Shown: positions 1 to 8,937 of the stretch, piece by piece
Position numbering within the stretch: position 1 is the stretch's first letter
Layout of the letters: each line of letters starts with the position of its first letter
Assembly: GCF_058153355.1 (NCBI RefSeq)
Contig: NZ_CM177019.1
DNA length: 64,000 nt
Strand: one strand, 5' to 3'
Position numbers and translations under genes: made by a program
Notes under the pieces: model-generated
What the model was told of the DNA's origin: nothing
The model's input: the letters and a program-made list of their open reading frames with translations, nothing else
Databases searched by the model: none

Positions 1-1184
1 TTGTAACCCTGTCCTAAATCCTCTTTTTTCGATTGTGACGGAAAAATTCCAAAGTTGGTTTGACTTTTATACGTCAGCTGGAAGGCCTTACCCTGTTGTG
101 TTTCCAGCGTGATATTTTCACCTTCAGATAAACGTTCTTGTAGGCGAGTAAGTGCGCTATCCAACATTTCCTGCGCACCAGCATGACCAAAGGCGGCATC
201 CTCGCATATCTGTTTAAAAATACCTGCCTTTATTTCGTATTTTACATTACCGTCATCAGTAGTCTCAGCTCTTAAACCTTCAATAAACTCTTCATAACCA
301 AAGCTCTGATGAAAGGTGATAAAACGCACTCGATTATCTTTGATAAGCTGATCATAAATCTTTTTCAACTCGCGACGTTTTTCACTCTCATCCTTACCCT
401 CCTGCAGGGAGTAAGCGATCGGATCACAAATTTGTACAGCAAGCTCAATAGTACGATATGTTTTACCTGTACCTGGCGGGCCATAGAGAATTGTGTTTTT
501 AGGCAATGGCGAACTTATAACATCATCTTCTTGCTCATTTTCTTGTAAAGCACTTTCGCTTCCAACTAAACCGATAGCATTTTTATCCTGAATTTCATAC
601 GCATAGAGATGCCAAAGTGACATATTCAGCTCAATAGGGTCGATATCATCACCCAGCGCACGATTTAGCGTTTCTTTAAGATCAACATTGCGAGCCAGCC
701 ACTCCCGTTCTCCGGAAAGACCTAGCTGGAAATGGTTGTTGCAATAATTGTAGCAACTAAAAAAATTATTAACATTCACGACACTGCTAATTTTTGATGG
801 GTATATTGCTGCAAAAGCACGATTACAAAGAGCCCTATATACCTTATTTAATACTCCGTCCGCTTTAAGTTTGATAAGACGTTCAATGACCCGATTATAA
901 TTTTCTTGTGTACACTCTTCTGCTATCTGACGGGTGAGCGTTAGAAGGTCTTTTTGTGCATTTTCAAATTCAACCAATGACATCCCACCTTGCATCAGGC
1001 TGGAGACACCATTGTCACGTTCATACCATACCTGCCGAATCGTGGCTTCAGAAAAGTTTGGTTTTTCGGCCTGAATCTGTTCTACAAGCTCGCGGTAGTG
1101 TTTGCCCCAAACTGAATTGTATTGATTATTTTTTTCAATTTGAGCACGAAAGAAGGGGGCTAATGCTGATGAATCCTGAACCAT
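1..1184 (-). CDS. McrB-family AAA+ GTPase (restriction-system motor subunit homolog), N-terminal ~394 codons only; the 3' end runs off the window start
   Basis: Minus-strand reading frame opens at ATG (plus coords 1182-1184) and, as translated by hand, continues without stop to position 1. Contains a Walker A motif GPPGTGKT (around 459-482) and, further on, FHQSFGYEEFIEG, which resembles the McrB signature FHQSYSYEDFIQG. It is absent from the supplied ORF track, presumably because it is incomplete. Confidence 0.6.
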   Translation of the reverse strand, partial: MVQDSSALAPFFRAQIEKNNQYNSVWGKHYRELVEQIQAEKPNFSEATIRQVWYERDNGVSSLMQGGMSLVEFENAQKDLLTLTRQIAEECTQENYNRVIERLIKLKADGVLNKVYRALCNRAFAAIYPSKISSVVNVNNFFSCYNYCNNHFQLGLSGEREWLARNVDLKETLNRALGDDIDPIELNMSLWHLYAYEIQDKNAIGLVGSESALQENEQEDDVISSPLPKNTILYGPPGTGKTYRTIELAVQICDPIAYSLQEGKDESEKRRELKKIYDQLIKDNRVRFITFHQSFGYEEFIEGLRAETTDDGNVKYEIKAGIFKQICEDAAFGHAGAQEMLDSALTRLQERLSEGENITLETQQGKAFQLTYKSQTNFGIFPSQSKKEDLGQGY

Positions 1185-1542
1185 CTCTTAATCCAATATG
1201 TAGGGGGGAGGGAAATTGGGATAGCCTTATCTTATCGGATTAATCTCAAAAATGTTAAATTTTATGATAAAAAAAAACTTTCATCCTGAAATTACCTTCT
1301 GCCCTGGAGCCGCCACATTTATCTGATGACTTTGAACTGCAAAACGCATGGTGTTGGTGGTTCTCAGAGAAGGCCATAGCATTCTTTCAGACGTAAAATC
1401 GCTACTCGTTTTTCAACCTGTGTGCATTTTCTAGTTGCATAGGGAATCAACTGTTTTTCAGGTAGGTATTGTTTACAGTAAATGGATATGCCGAAATTCA
1501 GAGGGTTCCAGTAACGACATTTTGACAGCAAACATACGACAT

Positions 1543-2376
1543 TCATTTTGCTGATAACGCTGACGGATAGTGCTTCGCCACAATGTCATTCATCTTATCC
1601 ACCAGATCCAGTCGCTTGAATGTGATGTGTCCACTGCCTTTCTGGTAATAGCGGATGACAAATAAATCGTCATTAAATACCTGCTCATGCGGGTGAGCAC
1701 TAACGAAGTCCATAAACCGAATCGCAACATCATGCCGGTTATCGGGAATGGCCTTCCCATCCAGCAGATAGAACATCCGTTCCAGATCGGCAAGCTGATC
1801 TCGCCGCCAGCCCCAGTGCAGGCTGTAACCCCATCGGTCATGCTTCACCAGATTGTTAACGATAATCTTCTTACCGAAATAACAGGGATTATTGGTTTTG
1901 TAATCCCAGCTCAATCCCTTAAATACATTGATAATCCCACGTTCGAAAACGTCATGCTTATTGTGGTGGAGTTGTTCAAAGGTACTCAGGATGTTGGCTT
2001 CGCTAATCGCCGGGAGATCGCCCTCCTCCAGGTTCTTTGCCCACTGACTGCGGGCTTCGGCATCCATCAGAGTCAACATCCCGGACTTCAGCATGAGATC
2101 GCGCCAGATGCTGCGATCGATATTGCGGGTGATCGCCGACATCGCTTTGTCGGTTGGTTGCATCAGCCAGCAGTCAAAGGCATATCCATTACGCATTCCC
2201 CAGGTTCCAGCCACATCACCGCCAATACTGGATGTCAGACTGGAGATATCATCCAGTTTTTGGATTAGCGTCGCTATCAGCTTCAGTGCGCTATCACGTC
2301 CTGTGACGATACGCTCAATATTGGTCGAGCGAATTATCTCGTTGTGATCGGTTAAGACTTCAGCTTCTGTTTGCAT
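1543..2376 (-). CDS. Hypothetical protein, 277 aa, function unknown; lies between the McrB-like gene and the divergently transcribed hsdM
   Basis: Longest ORF in the interval and same strand as the McrB-like gene 358 bp downstream. I see no nucleotide-binding or methyltransferase motif. The plus-strand ORFs overlapping it (1687..2268, 2093..2347) look like antisense shadows. Confidence 0.45.
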   Translation of the reverse strand: MQTEAEVLTDHNEIIRSTNIERIVTGRDSALKLIATLIQKLDDISSLTSSIGGDVAGTWGMRNGYAFDCWLMQPTDKAMSAITRNIDRSIWRDLMLKSGMLTLMDAEARSQWAKNLEEGDLPAISEANILSTFEQLHHNKHDVFERGIINVFKGLSWDYKTNNPCYFGKKIIVNNLVKHDRWGYSLHWGWRRDQLADLERMFYLLDGKAIPDNRHDVAIRFMDFVSAHPHEQVFNDDLFVIRYYQKGSGHITFKRLDLVDKMNDIVAKHYPSALSAK

Positions 2377-2682
2377 AATCTTTCATCCGTAAAAAAATAC
2401 ACTCGCCGTTAGTAGCAGACGGATTATCCTCTGGTGAAAGATTGGGTAAATAATGAGATTGAAAATCGGGAAGGTGACTCGCAATAAATTATCTGATCAC
2501 CTACGGATGGACGATGGGCATATAAAATAGCCTCCTGACTCAAACGGTGAATGCTGAATAAGATGCACTAACAATCTGGTACTGAATCCCCTCCTCACCG
2601 TCATACAAATCTGAAAAACCAAAAAACTTCCGGTAAAATCCCGGCAAAAGCCGACGTTAAAAACACATTCAAAGGATAAAAA

Positions 2683-4239
2683 ATGACCAGTCTTCAGCAG
2701 CGCGCGGAGCTTCATCGCCAAATCTGGCAAATTGCTAACGATGTCAGAGGTTCGGTCGATGGATGGGATTTTAAGCAATACGTTCTGGGCGCGCTTTTCT
2801 ACCGTTTTATCAGCGAAAATTTTTCCAGCTATATTGAAGCCGGTGATGACAGCATCTGTTATGCGAAACTGGATGACAGCGTAATTACTGATGACATTAA
2901 AGACGATGCCATCAAAACCAAAGGCTACTTCATCTACCCAAGTCAGCTTTTCTGCAACGTAGCTGCGAAAGCAAATACCAATGACAGACTGAACGCAGAT
3001 TTAAACAGCATCTTCGTTGCTATCGAAAGTTCTGCTTACGGTTACCCTTCAGAAGCTGACATCAAAGGTTTGTTTGCTGATTTCGATACCACCAGTAACC
3101 GCCTGGGTAATACCGTTAAGGATAAAAATGCCCGCCTGGCCGCGGTTCTGAAAGGGGTTGAAGGGTTAAAGCTTGGCGACTTTAACGAACATCAGATTGA
3201 CCTGTTCGGCGATGCCTATGAGTTCCTGATTTCTAACTATGCGGCGAATGCCGGTAAGTCAGGCGGCGAGTTCTTTACACCGCAGCACGTCTCTAAGCTG
3301 ATTGCACAACTGGCTATGCACGGGCAGACCCACGTTAACAAAATCTACGACCCGGCAGCGGGTTCCGGTTCGCTGTTGTTGCAGGCTAAAAAGCAGTTTG
3401 ATGACCACATCATCGAAGAAGGTTTTTTTGGTCAGGAAATCAACCATACGACCTATAACCTGGCGCGTATGAACATGTTTTTGCACAACATCAACTACGA
3501 CAAGTTTGATATCAAGTTGGGCAATACGCTGACTGAGCCGCACTTCAGAGATGAAAAACCGTTTGACGCCATCGTATCTAACCCACCGTATTCGGTGAAA
3601 TGGATAGGCAGCGATGACCCGACGCTGATTAACGATGAACGTTTTGCCCCGGCTGGCGTCCTGGCCCCCAAATCAAAAGCTGACTTCGCCTTTGTACTAC
3701 ATGCGCTGAACTATCTTTCTGCCAAAGGTCGTGCTGCGATTGTCTGCTTCCCGGGTATTTTTTACCGTGGCGGCGCAGAGCAGAAAATCCGTCAGTATCT
3801 GGTTGATAATAACTATGTCGAAACCGTGATTTCACTGGCTCCGAACCTGTTCTTTGGCACCACCATTGCCGTCAATATTCTGGTGTTGTCTAAACATAAA
3901 ACCGATACCAAAGTTCAGTTTATTGACGCCAGCGAACTATTCAAAAAAGAGACTAACAACAACATTCTGACCGATGCCCATATCGAACAGATTATGCAGG
4001 TATTTGCCAGCAAGGAAGATGTTGCTCATCTGGCGAAATCTGTCGCGTTTGAGACCGTTGTCGCTAATGACTATAACCTGTCGGTAAGCAGCTATGTGGA
4101 AGCGAAAGATAACCGCGAAATTATCGATATCAGTGAGCTGAATGCTGAGCTGAAAACCACGGTCAGCAAAATCGACCAGTTGCGTAAAGATATTGATGCG
4201 ATTGTGGCTGAAATTGAAGGCTGCGAGGTGCAGAAATGA
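2683..4239 (+). CDS. hsdM: Type I restriction-modification system DNA methyltransferase subunit M (type IC-like)
   Basis: 518-aa ORF with an N6-adenine methyltransferase NPPY motif ([11 protein letters not shown]) and the AdoMet-binding region ([11 protein letters not shown]). RBS aaaggat sits upstream of the ATG at 2683. The stop overlaps the hsdS start (ATGA at 4236-4239). Confidence 0.9.
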
Positions 4240-5390
4240 ACGAGTTGAGTTATCTGGAAAAATTACTGGATGGGGTTGAGGTTGAGTGGTTGCCATTGGC
4301 TAAAGTTTGTCGTTTAATAAACGGGAGAGCATATAAGCAAGAAGAACTGCTTTCCAAAGGCAAATATCCAGTATTAAGAGTCGGTAATTTTTTTACTAAC
4401 CAAAATTGGTATTACTCAGATTTAGAATTAGATCAAGACAAGTATTGTGATAACGGTGACCTTTTATATGCTTGGTCCGCATCATTTGGTCCAAGAATTT
4501 GGCATGGGGGTAAATCTATTTACCATTATCACATATGGAAAGTGGTTCCAGATTCGAATCTTATTTGTAAACAGTTTCTATATTACTTGTTACAATGGGA
4601 TACTAAAGCACTTAAAGATGCACATAGCACTGGTTCTACTATGATGCACATCAGCAAAACTACAATTGAAAAAAGGTTAGTCCCCATCCCCTGCCCGGAT
4701 AATCCGGAAAAATCCCTTGCCATCCAGTCTGAAATCGTTCGGATTCTGGATAAATTTACTGCACTTACCGCTGAGCTTACCGCTGAGCTTAATATGCGAA
4801 AAAAACAGTACAACTACTATCTCGACCAGTTACTGAATCTTGAGGGTAGGGAAAATACTCGAGAAATGAGGATAGGTGATATTTATGATTTTCAGTATGG
4901 AACAGGCAATACAATTCCTAAATCTGGAGGGCAATATCCTGTTTATGGTAGCAACGGGATTGTAGGCTCCCATGACAAATATAACAGCGAAGACTCACCT
5001 GTTATTGGCCATATAGGTGCTTACGCAGGAATCGTTAACTGGGGCCAGGGTAAGCATTTTGTTACATACAACGGAGTTATTTGTAGGCACAAATCGAAGG
5101 AAGTTCTTCAAAAATACGCCTACTATTTATTACTTTTACAAGATTTCGGTTCAAAATCTAATAGTGCATCACAGCCTTTTGTTTCATATAACATATTAAA
5201 TGCTCCTATTGTTTTGGTTCCCCCTTTACAAGAGCAAGCTCGTATCGTCGCAATACTCGATAAATTCGACACCCTGACCAACTCCATCACCGAAGGTCTT
5301 CCGCGTGAAATCGAGTTGCGCCAGAAACAATACGAGTACTATCGTGATTTACTGTTCAGTTTCCCAAAACCTGAAACTCTCAGTAATTAA
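4236..5390 (+). CDS. hsdS: Type I restriction-modification system specificity subunit S (type IC-like, two target-recognition domains)
   Basis: 384-aa ORF translationally coupled to hsdM. It has two AT-rich variable regions separated by a conserved central region containing TAEL repeats, plus a conserved C-terminal region ([30 protein letters not shown]), as in EcoR124-type HsdS. Confidence 0.85.
4767..4790 (+). repeat. Two tandem copies of a 12-bp repeat ACCGCTGAGCTT (encoding TAEL-TAEL) in the central conserved region of hsdS
   Basis: Direct reading: accgctgagctt accgctgagctt at 4767-4790. In type IC HsdS, the copy number of this repeat is known to set the spacer length of the recognition sequence. 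Confidence 0.85.
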
Positions 5391-5511
5391 TTGACCATTA
5401 TTACAGACCGGACCATCTTAATATCCGGTCAGTATATAGACTATTTTTTACACGCCGGAAGTCACCATTAACCCCCTTCCGGCCCTTGCCAGACGGCACA
5501 AAGGATGCGCT

Positions 5512-8500
5512 ATGACTCATCAAACACACACCATTGCTGAATCCAATAACTTTATCGTTCTTGATAAGTACATCAAAGCTGAGCAAACAGGCGACAGCTA
5601 TCAGAGCGAATCGGACCTGGAACGTGAACTGATTCAGGACCTGCAAAATCAGGGCTATGAATTTATACCCGTAAAATCACAGTCAGCGATGCTGGCCAAC
5701 GTTCGGGAACAGCTTCAGAGCCTCAATGGTGTGGTGTTTAATGACAGCGAGTGGCGGCGTTTCACGGAGCAGTATCTGGATAACCCGAGCGATGGCATTC
5801 TGGATAAGACCCGTAAAATCCATATCGACTATATTTGCGACTTTATTTTTGATGACGAGCGACTTGAGAACATCTATTTGATAGATAAAAAGAATCTCAT
5901 GCGCAATAAGGTGCAGATTATCCAGCAGTTTGAACAGGCGGGTTCCCACTCTAACCGCTATGATGTCACGATCCTGATTAATGGCTTACCACTGGTACAA
6001 ATCGAACTGAAAAAGCGCGGCGTGGCGATTCGTGAGGCTTTCAACCAGATACATCGTTACAGTAAAGAGAGTTTTAACAGCGAAAATTCCCTGTTTAAGT
6101 ATCTGCAACTGTTTGTCATTTCTAACGGCACCGATACCCGTTACTTTGCCAACACCACAAAGCGCGATAAAAATAGTTTTGACTTCACCATGAACTGGGC
6201 GAAATCAGACAACACGCTGATTAAAGACCTCAAAGATTTTACCGCTACCTTTTTCCAGAAACATACTCTGCTTAATGTTCTGGTGAACTACAGCGTGTTC
6301 GATATTAGCCAGACGCTACTGGTGATGCGACCGTACCAGATTGCCGCCACCGAACGAATCTTATGGAAAATCAACAGCTCCTATAAAGCGAAAAACTGGT
6401 CTACCCCCGAAAGCGGTGGCTTTATCTGGCACACCACCGGTTCCGGTAAAACCCTGACCAGCTTTAAAGCTGCGCGTCTGGCAACAGAGCTGGACTTTAT
6501 TGATAAAGTCTTCTTCGTGGTCGACAGAAAAGACCTCGATTACCAGACCATGAAGGAATATCAGCGTTTTTCGCCAGATAGTGTTAACGGTTCGGAAAAT
6601 ACCGCAGGCCTGAAACGAAATCTGGATAAGGACGATAACAAAATTATCGTCACCACTATTCAGAAACTTAATAACCTGATGAAAGCAGAAAGCGACCTGC
6701 CTGTATACAATCAGCAAGTGGTGTTTATATTTGATGAATGTCACCGCAGCCAGTTTGGAGAAGCGCAGAAAAACCTGAAGAAGAAATTCAAACGCTATTA
6801 TCAGTTTGGTTTTACCGGCACACCTATTTTCCCGGAAAACGCTTTAGGCTCAGAAACGACCGCCAGCGTATTTGGTCGTGAATTGCATTCGTATGTGATT
6901 ACCGATGCGATTCGTGATGAAAAAGTGCTCAAATTCAAGGTGGACTATAACGATGTGCGGCCACAATTTAAGTCTTTAGAGACAGAAACCGACGAGAAAA
7001 AACTGAGTGCGGCTGAAAATCAGCAGGCGTTTCTTCATCCCATGCGTATACAGGAAATTACGCAATATATTCTGAATAACTTCCGCCAGAAGACCCACCG
7101 TACTTTCCCAGGTTCCAAAGGCTTTAATGCCATGCTGGCAGTGAGTAGCGTGGATGCCGCGAAAGCCTATTACGCGACGTTTAAACGGTTACAAGAGGAA
7201 GCCGCTAATAAATCTGCTACCTATAAACCACTACGTGTTGCGACAATCTTCTCCTTTGCCGCTAATGAAGAACAAAATGCCATTGGTGAAATTTCCGATG
7301 AAACTTTTGATACCAGCGCAATGGACAGCAGTGCTAAAGAGTTTCTCGACGCTGCAATTCGTGAATATAACAGCTATTTTAAAACTAACTTCAGTACCGA
7401 CAGTAACGGTTTTCAGAACTACTATCGTGATTTAGCCCAACGGGTTAAAAATCAGGATATCGATCTGTTAATTGTCGTTGGGATGTTTTTAACCGGCTTC
7501 GACGCTCCAACATTGAACACGCTATTCGTCGATAAAAACTTGCGTTTTCACGGCCTGATGCAGGCATTTTCCCGCACCAACCGCATTTATGACGCCACTA
7601 AAACCTTCGGTAACATCGTCACTTTTCGGGATCTGGAACGCTCAACCATTGATGCCATAACGCTGTTTGGTGATAAAAATACCAAAAATGTGGTGTTAGA
7701 AAAGAGTTATGCCGAGTATATGGAAGGCTTTACAGATGCTGCCACTGGTGAAGCTAAACGCGGCTTTATGGCAGTAGTTTCAGAACTGGAACAACGGTTC
7801 CCTGACCCTGCCAGTATTGAAAGTGAAAAAGAGAAGAAAGACTTCGTTAAACTGTTTGGTGAATACCTGCGCGCCGAGAACATCCTGCAAAACTATGATG
7901 AATTTGCCACGCTGAAAGCCCTGCAACAAATCGATCTTAGCGATCCTGTTGCGGTAGAAAAATTCAAAGCAGAACATTATGTGGATGATGAAAAGTTTGC
8001 TGAATTACAAACGATTCGTCTCCCTGCTGAACGTAAGATTCAGGATTATCGTTCGGCCTATAACGATATTCGTGACTGGCAGCGCCGCGAGAAAGAAGCT
8101 GACAAAAAAGAAAAATCAACCACTGACTGGGATGACGTGGTTTTTGAGGTCGATTTGCTGAAGTCTCAGGAAATAAACCTGGATTATATCCTTGGACTGA
8201 TTTTCGAACACAACAGACAAAACAAAGGTAAGGGCGAAATGACCGAAGAGGTCAAACGCTTAATTCGTTCGAGCCTTGGGAACCGTGCCAAAGAAGGCCT
8301 GGTGGTCGATTTTATTCAACAAACGAACCTGGATGATTTGCCGGATAAAGCCAGTATCATTGACGCGTTCTTTATCTTTGCTCAACGCGAACAGCAACGT
8401 GAAGCAGAAGCGTTGATTAAAGAAGAAAATCTCAATGAAGAAGCAGCGAAACGCTATATTCGCACGTCTTTAAAACGCGAATACGCCACCGAAAATGGCA

Positions 8501-8628
8501 CAGAATTAAACGAGACGTTACCAAAACTTAGTCCGTTAAACCCGCAATATAAAACGAAAAAACAGACGGTTTTCCAGAAGATCGTCGCGTTTATTGAGAA
8601 GTTTAAAGGTGTAGGCGGGCAGATATAA
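5512..8628 (+). CDS. hsdR: Type I restriction enzyme endonuclease/helicase subunit R (type IC-like, 1038 aa)
   Basis: 1038-aa ORF with SF2 helicase motifs (Walker A TTGSGKT, DEAH-like [10 protein letters not shown]). The length matches type IC HsdR such as EcoR124I as I recall it. A 121-bp gap after hsdS leaves room for its own promoter. Confidence 0.9.
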
Positions 8629-8852: not shown

Positions 8853-8937
8853 TGGTGCCGAAGGCCGGACTCGAACCGGCACGTATTTCTACGGTTGATT
8901 TTGAATCAACTGCGTCTACCGATTTCGCCACTTCGGC
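8853..8937 (-). tRNA. leuX: tRNA-Leu (anticodon CAA)
   Basis: The minus-strand sequence GCCGAAGTGGCGAAATCGGTAGACGCAGTTGATTCAAAATCAACCGTAGAAATACGTGCCGGTTCGAGTCCGGCCTTCGGCACCA has acceptor stem, D-loop, anticodon loop UUCAAAA (anticodon CAA), the long variable arm of a class II tRNA, T-loop GGTTCGAGTCC and 3' CCA. Confidence 0.92.

What the first reader, a model, noticed from the sequence alone, without database searches (positions are those of the whole stretch)
1..2376. McrB-family GTPase with a divergent N-terminal domain plus an upstream unknown 277-aa ORF: candidate uncharacterised restriction/defense module
The minus-strand gene at 1..1184 has the McrB hallmarks (GPPGTGKT, FHQSFGYEEF), but it is preceded by about 230 N-terminal residues that do not resemble the K-12 McrB DNA-binding domain as I recall it. 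It is truncated by the window edge, so any McrC-like partner would lie just outside. It sits in the same orientation directly downstream of a 277-aa ORF with no recognisable motifs, inside a leuX-associated island next to a type I R-M system. The pair could be a modification-dependent restriction system with a new specificity domain, or a different McrB-motor-based defense system.
Basis: partly seen in the sequence, partly recalled or inferred. Interest (0 to 1): 0.75.

Follow-up and report, generated by a model that had tools for sequence, protein, structure and literature searches.

The report
McrBC restriction cassette in leuX island
The truncated gene is the front half of an ordinary two-gene McrBC modified-DNA restriction system whose nuclease partner lies just off the window, with an unusual all-helical N-terminal domain that may be a dead DNA-glycosylase fold used as a sensor; the neighbouring 277-aa gene is an unrelated, very common island gene (DUF4942).

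Summary
Window 1..1184 (-) encodes the first 394 of 684 residues of a McrB-family GTPase, identical to E2348/69 WP_000249522.1. In that strain and about 300 other E. coli genomes a McrC gene (PF10117, 4e-100) follows with a 4-bp overlap. This is a canonical (NxxD-type) McrBC type IV restriction cassette in the leuX defence hotspot, beside an EcoR124-like type IC R-M system.

The 277-aa ORF is DUF4942 (1.4e-68). It is not a McrBC partner: it has a different population history, homology breaks 29 bp past its stop codon, AbiE or other cargo replaces McrBC elsewhere, and it is absent beside all five distant McrB homologues examined.

Verdict: an uncharacterised member of a known kind, of moderate interest.

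The parts
1..1184 (-). 5' 58% of the mcrB-family gene (codons 1-394 of 684), truncated by the window edge
   Evidence: ORF translation. Identical over 394 aa to E2348/69 WP_000249522.1. The full-length protein hits T. gammatolerans McrB 6UT3 at 1.2e-52 and E. coli McrB 6HZ4 at 5.6e-30.
585..1184 (-). Conserved all-alpha N-terminal module (residues 1-~200), the candidate modified-base sensor. It is followed by an acidic linker (residues ~201-228).
459..482 (-). Walker A / P-loop GPPGTGKT (residues 235-242)
285..314 (-). McrB-family motif FHQSFGYEEF (residues 291-300)
   Evidence: Aligns to FHQSYSYEEF of TgMcrB.
1..194 (-). Start of the long insertion between the FHQ motif region and Walker B (residues ~331-444 of the full protein; the rest lies outside the window)
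   Evidence: Walker A to Walker B is ~214 residues here, against ~140 in the T. gammatolerans chain aligned. Positions. The K-12 spacing (~75) is from memory.
1185..1513 (-). Upstream non-coding part of the McrBC cassette, with a promoter-like site at 1258..1229 and an AAGAG Shine-Dalgarno-like sequence before the ATG
   Evidence: The number of promoter-like hits is not above chance (4 found against 3.3 expected). GC 38.5%, like mcrB (40.7%) and unlike DUF4942 (48.8%).
1514..1542 (.). Cargo junction. The 29 bp after the DUF4942 stop codon are shared with strain WAT, where AbiE replaces McrBC. Homology ends at 1514.
1543..2376 (-). DUF4942 gene (277 aa), an island-backbone gene that is not part of the McrBC system
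   Evidence: PF13708, 1.4e-68. 2565 clusters across Enterobacterales. Follows CbtA/YeeU in CP4-type islands. Homologous to the N-terminal ~270 aa of phage DNA methyltransferases, phrog_6263.
2683..8628 (+). Neighbouring type IC restriction-modification system (hsdM 2683..4239, hsdS 4236..5390, hsdR 5512..8628). Context only, not part of the finding's system.
   Evidence: HsdR matches EcoR124I HsdR 2W00 over 1-1038 at 2257 bits.
8853..8937 (-). leuX tRNA-Leu(CAA), anchor of the island (E. coli defence hotspot #37)
   Evidence: PMC12707154 read.

Best explanation
Window 1..1184 is the first 58% of mcrB in a two-gene McrBC type IV (modification-dependent) restriction cassette. Its mcrC lies immediately beyond the window edge. 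By analogy with solved McrBC complexes, the 684-aa McrB forms a GTP-dependent AAA+ hexamer, McrC (a DUF2357 stalk plus a PD-(D/E)xK nuclease) plugs into it and stimulates GTP hydrolysis, and the complex translocates and cuts foreign DNA. Target choice is most likely made by the N-terminal ~200-residue all-helical module. I read this module as a catalytically dead relative of Ogg/EndoIII (HhH-GPD) DNA glycosylases that recognises non-canonical, possibly hypermodified, bases, as in the recently described 'END' nucleases. The cassette is cargo in the leuX-anchored defence hotspot, next to a type IC R-M system. The upstream 277-aa gene (DUF4942) is a separate, widespread island gene whose 3' end marks the edge of the cargo slot, and it does not work with McrBC. 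Shown: gene identities, the McrC partner, the canonical motifs, the module's distribution and fusions, and DUF4942's independence. Inferred: the sensor role, the glycosylase ancestry, and the kind of DNA that is targeted.
For: McrBC identity. The AAA+ part hits TgMcrB at 1.2e-52 and EcMcrB at 5.6e-30. Walker A, the FHQ motif, the DEINR Walker B and the MNTAD (NxxD) signature are present. The downstream 436-aa protein is PF10117 McrBC at 3.8e-100 with an RPD...DVK motif and a 4-bp overlap with mcrB. McrC is present in 315 E. coli genomes against 285 with the McrB 5' half. McrC directly follows in 5 of 5 distant homologues.

Sensor role of the module. It has 128 representatives and always ends ~30-40 residues before an effector domain. 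Besides McrB, it is fused to a C-terminal GGYADA..LYEIK..GQLLEY PD-(D/E)xK domain in at least 15 representatives and to HNH_2 (4e-14) in one. It co-occurs with EVE, Mrr_N, MrcB_N and DUF3427.

DUF4942 independence.
Confidence: 0.68

Rival explanations
1. It is a real McrBC system, but the helical module is a constant structural adaptor or regulatory domain (for example for assembly or autoinhibition) and not the DNA reader. In long family members the reader is the extra N-terminal head. This short E. coli form would then lack a dedicated reader and would take its specificity from the AAA+ insertion (residues ~331-444), from McrC, or would have little specificity.
For: The module is conserved while the heads in front of it vary among at least three unrelated types plus MrcB_N and EVE. 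The McrB census reports that insertions in the GTPase domain are frequent and may encode specificity domains (PMC11090510). This protein has a ~114-residue insertion between the FHQ region and Walker B. The fold match to glycosylases is weak and has no sequence support.
Against: The same module is joined directly to unrelated nucleases (PD-(D/E)xK, HNH_2), often with no other recognisable domain. That is hard to explain for a McrB-specific adaptor and is typical of type IV reader domains. Many family members, including this one, have no other N-terminal domain. The invariant residues are Trp, Asn and Arg, as expected for a base- or DNA-binding surface.
Confidence: 0.22
2. The first reader's module: DUF4942 plus the McrB-family GTPase (plus a nuclease) form one new multi-gene defence system.
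For: The two genes have the same orientation and are adjacent in about 200-285 E. coli genomes. DUF4942 is related to the N-terminal region of phage DNA methyltransferases, so a link to DNA modification is conceivable.
Against: mcrB is >=99% identical in all 285 genomes, while DUF4942 ranges from 79% to 99.9% in 501 genomes. Homology to an AbiE-carrying allele of the same locus ends 29 bp after the DUF4942 stop codon. In other islands DUF4942 follows CbtA/YeeU and precedes RelE/CopG, RhuM or an integrase. Five of five distant homologues of this McrB have McrC and none has DUF4942. IS3 destroys DUF4942 in RM7190 and McrBC stays intact. There is a 358-bp gap and a jump in GC content from 48.8% to 38.5-40.7% between the two genes.
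Confidence: 0.04
3. A non-defence AAA+ ATPase (MoxR-like or a transposition helper) with no nuclease partner.
For: Only generic AAA hits appear when the truncated window fragment is scanned alone.
Against: There are strong, specific matches to solved McrB GTPases, the NxxD signature is present, and a full-length McrC is overlapping downstream.
Confidence: 0.01

Closest known systems
EcoKMcrBC (E. coli K-12 McrB/McrC)
   Same: Two-gene operon with mcrB upstream. AAA+ GTPase with Walker A, Walker B and the NxxD signature. McrC has DUF2357 plus a PD-(D/E)xK nuclease. Sits next to a type I R-M system in a variable defence island (PMC11090510).
   Different: The N-terminal reader is not the ADAM/DUF3578 5mC-binding domain (no MrcB_N hit). 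The protein is 684 aa, against 459 aa for the K-12 chain listed. There is a larger insertion between Walker A and Walker B. The location is the leuX hotspot #37 and not the classical immigration control region. Specificity is unknown.
Thermococcus gammatolerans McrBC (PDB 6UT3-6UT8)
   Same: Closest solved motor (1.2e-52), with shared FHQSxxYEEF, IIDEINRGN and MNTAD blocks and lid region.
   Different: Per the literature read, TgMcrB uses a YTH reader for 6mA, whereas here the head is an all-alpha module.
END nucleases / 'iEndoIII' sensor (bioRxiv 2025.03.31.646159, PMC12191111)
   Same: A catalytically dead Ogg/EndoIII-like all-alpha domain acts as the sensor for hypermodified bases. The preprint reports it fused to PLD and PD-DExK nucleases and to McrB-like GTPases. 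Here the best structural matches are archaeal and bacterial Ogg2 enzymes, the catalytic residues are not conserved, and the same module is fused to PD-(D/E)xK nucleases.
   Different: Homology to the preprint's proteins could not be tested because no sequences were available. There is no hit to Pfam OGG-like PF21790. None of my hits carries an HxK(x)4D motif, so no PLD fusion was seen (motif scan only). The effector here is a translocating McrBC and not a single-chain nuclease. The McrB fusions were not tested experimentally in the preprint.
CoCoNuT systems (CnuB/CnuC)
   Same: They have a McrB-like GTPase plus a McrC-like partner, and are often found near type I R-M.
   Different: CoCoNuTs have an NxD signature, coiled coils and extra nucleases. 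This protein has NTAD (NxxD), and no extra CoCoNuT-type gene lies beside mcrBC in E2348/69.
Phage DNA methyltransferases of phrog_6263 (e.g. Aeromonas phage vB_AsaM-56 gp39, Pseudomonas phage phiPSA1 gp22), for the 277-aa ORF
   Same: The DUF4942 region (residues ~70-277) aligns to their N-terminal ~270 residues.
   Different: The window protein stops where the phage proteins continue into the methyltransferase catalytic domain, so it has no methyltransferase domain. It is stand-alone, as in phrog_38825.

Membership tests
McrBC type IV restriction system | AAA+ GTPase domain homologous to McrB, with a Walker A P-loop | tested here: met
   GPPGTGKT at residues 235-242 inside the window. The full-length protein hits 6UT3 at 1.2e-52 and 6HZ4 at 5.6e-30.
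McrBC type IV restriction system | Walker B (DEINR) and the McrB GTPase signature NxxD | tested here: met
   IIDEINRGN and MNTAD are present in the full-length E2348/69 protein, which is identical to the window product over its 394 residues. These motifs lie outside the window, so for the source genome they are inferred.
McrBC type IV restriction system | Adjacent McrC partner (DUF2357 stalk plus PD-(D/E)xK nuclease) | tested here: met
   PF10117 at 3.8e-100 over residues 65-386, an RPD...DVK motif, and a 4-bp overlap with mcrB in E2348/69. Present in 315 E. coli genomes and in 5 of 5 distant homologues. Outside the window.
McrBC type IV restriction system | N-terminal domain that reads modified DNA | tested here: inconclusive
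   It is not ADAM, EVE or YTH. The module's fusions to other nucleases and its weak glycosylase-like fold suggest a reader, but a variable head precedes it in half of the family.
McrBC type IV restriction system | GTP-dependent cleavage of modified DNA | not testable with these tools
   Needs biochemistry or phage and plasmid challenge.
END-type 'iEndoIII' dead-glycosylase sensor | HhH-GPD (EndoIII/Ogg) fold | tested here: inconclusive
END-type 'iEndoIII' dead-glycosylase sensor | Loss of the catalytic Asp (and Lys) of active glycosylases | tested here: met
   No column of the 46-sequence alignment has Asp or Lys above 72%. This is meaningful only if the fold assignment is right.
END-type 'iEndoIII' dead-glycosylase sensor | Detectable sequence similarity to EndoIII/Ogg families (the preprint found this by HHpred, including Pfam PF21790) | tested here: not met
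   No PF21790 or HhH-GPD hit at E<=10. The profile search against PDB sequences finds none. The profile against the EndoIII motif is no better than shuffles. hmmscan is less sensitive than HHpred, which I could not run against a structure library.
END-type 'iEndoIII' dead-glycosylase sensor | Direct homology to END-PaCF1, END-Ec1 or END-Mag sensor domains | not tested
CoCoNuT | NxD variant of the GTPase signature, coiled coils and tandem nucleases | tested here: not met
   The signature is NTAD (NxxD), and the locus is a plain two-gene mcrBC.
DUF4942 as a component of this McrBC system | Conserved co-occurrence and shared evolutionary history with mcrBC | tested here: not met
Pfam DUF4942 (PF13708), for the 277-aa ORF | Full-length match to the family profile | tested here: met
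   E 1.4e-68, model positions 1-189 of 190.

The most novel reading that the evidence does not exclude
The helical head is a dead Ogg/EndoIII-type glycosylase that flips out and senses hypermodified bases (for example 7-deazaguanines or glucosylated hmC). That would give a translocating McrBC motor a modification-agnostic or purine-directed specificity not previously shown for any McrBC. The system is native to about 5% of E. coli, including the EPEC prototype E2348/69.
Probability: 0.35. Interest if true: 0.6.

Novelty: new member of a known kind. Interest (0 to 1): 0.38.

Why it matters
McrBC systems are classic and their readers are known to be modular, so another McrBC is not surprising in itself. 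What is useful here is this: a widespread, unnamed helical module sits in front of the McrB motor in one whole branch of the family and is also fused to stand-alone nucleases. If it is the dead-glycosylase sensor proposed for END nucleases, this E. coli cassette is a convenient native system in which to test how such a sensor couples to a translocating nuclease, and which modified phages it restricts. The analysis also removes a false lead: DUF4942 is not a defence partner. It marks a cargo junction that recurs in several enterobacterial islands.

Tried and rejected
1. NCBIfam, PADLOC and Pfam scans of the N-terminal domain found no family.

2. I searched for sequence-level support for the glycosylase fold. 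A profile search of PDB sequences found nothing relevant. By eye, GVLNKVYRALCNRAFA...P...VxxxxF resembled the EndoIII motif GVGRKTANVVLNTAFG.P..VDTHIF (the EndoIII sequence was verified). The module HMM aligned to that motif no better than to shuffled sequence, so I rejected this as evidence.

3. I considered that the ~30 genomes with this McrC but no megablast hit to the McrB 5' half carry a different N-terminal allele. The one genome examined (A33) has an McrB differing by only 2 residues, so the idea is rejected there. The difference in counts remains unexplained.

5. The commonest extra head of long family members (alignment A5, 'WNP...GDxVYLxRLG') has no PDB-sequence or NCBIfam hit. My impression that it is PUA/EVE-like is untested.

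6. The search for related loci with the module alignment failed because no stretch was conserved enough. I sampled neighbourhoods with the look-up of encoding contigs instead.

7. I looked for the window's exact source genome. The best match is 96.8% over 9 kb, so the left flank of the true source was not seen.

8. Promoter and terminator scans gave numbers at chance level. Rfam found nothing in 1..3000.

9. The END preprint has no held supplements and gives no accession for its McrB fusions.

10. The Klebsiella SGH07 McrBC that blocks plasmid uptake (PMC12456054) might be a relative, but no sequence was available to check.
Full report
**Observation.** The minus strand of window 1..1184 is open for 394 codons from an ATG at 1184. 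It contains GPPGTGKT (residues 235-242) and FHQSFGYEEF (residues 291-300) and runs off the window edge. A 277-aa ORF lies at 1543..2376 on the same strand. hsdM, hsdS and hsdR follow on the plus strand at 2683..8628, and leuX tRNA-Leu(CAA) is at 8853..8937. The plus-strand ORFs inside 1..2376 overlap these two genes and have no support of their own. Rfam finds no RNA family in 1..3000. The description in the finding is accurate.

**Extending past the window edge.** The region occurs in hundreds of complete E. coli genomes. The best match is EPEC strain E2348/69, at 99.3% over 2.7 kb. There the gene continues to 684 codons (RefSeq 'McrB family protein', WP_000249522.1), and a 436-codon 'McrC family protein' follows with a 4-bp overlap. 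Beyond that lie a phosphorothioated-DNA-binding restriction endonuclease and an HNH endonuclease. The window's 394 residues are identical to the E2348/69 protein.

The full-length protein has the Walker B block IIDEINRGN and the signature MNTAD. It matches solved McrB motors strongly: T. gammatolerans 6UT3 at 1.2e-52 and E. coli 6HZ4 at 5.6e-30. The partner is a full-length Pfam McrBC/McrC match (3.8e-100) with an RPD...DVK nuclease motif. NTAD is the canonical NxxD form, not the NxD form that defines the CoCoNuT branch (PMC11090510).

The mcrC gene is present in 315 of 5426 E. coli genomes, and the mcrB 5' half in 285, all at >=99% identity. Five distant homologues sampled from other genomes and metagenomes all have McrC immediately downstream. 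One caveat: no complete genome in the collection matches the window itself (best 96.8% over 9 kb), so the presence of mcrC in the source genome is inferred.

**The 277-aa ORF.** It is a full-length DUF4942 protein (PF13708, 1.4e-68). The family has at least 2565 sequence clusters, and the closest 120 are all from Enterobacterales at 78-91% identity. Several independent lines show that it is not a partner of McrBC:

- mcrB is >=99% identical wherever it occurs, whereas the DUF4942 gene is found in 501 genomes at 79-99.9% identity. In strain TF5, for example, mcrB is 99.6% identical and the adjacent DUF4942 only 92.9%.
- In strain WAT the same leuX locus has hsdMSR and DUF4942, followed by an AbiE pair (DUF6088/AbiEii) where McrBC would be.
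- Homology between WAT and the window ends at window position 1514, which is 29 bp past the DUF4942 stop codon.
- In CP4-type islands at other sites, DUF4942 directly follows the CbtA/YeeU toxin-antitoxin pair and precedes RelE/CopG, RhuM or an integrase. Homology to the window ends within a few bases of the gene's ends.
- None of the five distant McrB homologues has DUF4942 nearby.
- In RM7190 an IS3 element has destroyed DUF4942 while mcrB and mcrC remain intact.
- A 358-bp gap separates the two genes, and GC content drops from 48.8% (DUF4942) to 38.5-40.7% (spacer and mcrB).

[quoted passage not shown] An exhaustive HMMER scan of 1.84 billion representatives found 128 proteins at E<=1e-3. 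In every full-length case the module ends ~30-40 residues before a McrB Walker A. About half of these proteins are 650-700 aa like ours. The others are 790-1160 aa and carry an extra 130-530 residues in front of the module. Pfam recognises MrcB_N (ADAM) in two of them and EVE in one, and the rest fall into at least three unrecognised head types.

A further set of hits has no McrB motor at all. In these the same module is followed by a C-terminal domain with the motif GGYADA...LYEIK...GQLLEY, a PD-(D/E)xK signature (Pfam PDDEXK_9, weak, in 5 members). One protein has HNH_2 (4e-14), and others have Mrr_N or DUF3427. Being fused to several different type IV nuclease effectors is how a target-recognition domain typically behaves.

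Sequence methods give no support. A profile search of PDB sequences found nothing relevant. A resemblance I noticed by eye to the EndoIII HhH-GPD motif (that motif was verified) scores no better than shuffled controls. The fold assignment is therefore a consistent but weak structural lead.

**Prior knowledge.** A 2025 preprint (PMC12191111) shows that 'END' nucleases use a catalytically inactive EndoIII/Ogg-like domain to recognise diversely hypermodified phage DNA. It states that this sensor is also found fused to a NucS-like PD-DExK nuclease (which restricts 7-deazaguanine phages) and to 'the McrB-like GTPase'. That is the same set of architectures I recovered independently. I could not obtain the preprint's sequences, so identity of the families is unverified.

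The characterised McrB readers named in the literature read here are the K-12 5mC-binding domain (ADAM/DUF3578, also described as SRA-like), YTH, EVE/PUA and B3 (PMC12707154; PMC11090510). The leuX island is the known E. coli defence 'hotspot #37'. The neighbouring R-M system is type IC, because its HsdR is essentially EcoR124I HsdR.

**Mechanism proposed.** Shown: a canonical McrB motor and a McrC nuclease encoded as an overlapping gene pair. Inferred from the solved E. coli and T. gammatolerans complexes: a GTP-bound McrB hexamer, McrC inserting its stalk to stimulate GTP hydrolysis, then DNA translocation and cleavage. Inferred from the fusions, the fold and the preprint: the helical head binds DNA and probes bases in a pocket lined by the invariant Trp, Asn and Arg residues without excising them, and so directs the complex to modified foreign DNA. 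The kind of modification is unknown. By analogy with END nucleases, hypermodified bases are a reasonable first guess.

**Verdict.** It is wrong about the 277-aa ORF being part of that system. This is an uncharacterised member of a well-known kind, already annotated as McrB/McrC family in RefSeq, and its head type has been anticipated in one preprint. Interest is moderate: the system is common in E. coli and easy to test experimentally.

Noticed in passing
window 1514..1545; L007:6971..7003; L004, L005, L006 near 7000: The 3' end of DUF4942 is a recurrent junction. Downstream cargo differs between loci (McrBC, AbiE, RelE/CopG, RhuM, an integrase remnant), while the gene itself is shared. The 29 bp shared between the McrBC and AbiE alleles contain ATGTCGT twice. 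This could be a cargo-exchange site.
   Followed up: partly
window 2683..8628: The neighbouring R-M system is type IC. HsdR matches EcoR124I HsdR (PDB 2W00) end to end at 2257 bits. The hsdS region at about 4290..5216 has almost no homology to the E2348/69 or WAT alleles, which implies a different recognition sequence.
   Followed up: partly
L001:8101..9760 (E2348/69, left of mcrC; outside the window): The far side of the cassette carries a phosphorothioated-DNA-binding restriction endonuclease and an HNH endonuclease, so up to three modification-dependent nucleases plus a type IC system are clustered here. In strain WAT the PT-dependent gene is truncated where AbiE replaces McrBC.
   Followed up: no
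proteins P0070, P0072, P0099, P0100, P0105-P0107, P0113, P0114, P0116, P0120, P0121, P0123, P0125, P0126; P0115: Single-chain proteins join the same helical module to a C-terminal PD-(D/E)xK domain (GGYADA..LYEIK..GQLLEY) or, in P0115, to an HNH_2 nuclease. They are probably stand-alone type IV enzymes of the END-Mag kind. No Pfam or NCBIfam family covers the module.
   Followed up: partly
proteins P0032, P0041, P0042, P0045, P0051 and others, residues 1-~150 (alignment A5): Long McrB relatives carry an unrecognised ~150-residue head with the consensus LLxWNP...RWSC...GDxVYLxRLG..P.GI.AKG.VT...W.PQ.SGI. It matches nothing in PDB sequences or NCBIfam. At least two other unrelated head types also exist.
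   Followed up: partly
L015:4772..6169 (RM7190); also PE15, BE2-5 and others: An IS3-family element is inserted in DUF4942 in a group of strains, leaving a 168-bp 5' stub. RefSeq labels this stub a partial 'restriction endonuclease subunit M', which echoes the DUF4942-methyltransferase relationship.
   Followed up: partly
E. coli genome collection: 315 genomes carry this mcrC but only 285 matched the mcrB 5' half. The one discordant-looking genome checked (A33) has a near-identical mcrB, so the 30-genome difference is unexplained. IS insertions or 5' deletions are possible causes.
   Followed up: partly
window 1..2376: There is a compositional step: mcrB is 40.7% GC and the spacer 38.5%, against 48.8% for DUF4942 and 53% for the core genome beyond leuX. 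This is consistent with separately acquired pieces.
   Followed up: yes
literature: PMC12456054: A Klebsiella pneumoniae SGH07 McrBC said to 'differ substantially' from K-12 McrBC blocks conjugative plasmid uptake from E. coli donors. If its McrB carries this helical module, it would be the first functional data for the family. This could not be checked because no sequence was available.
   Followed up: no
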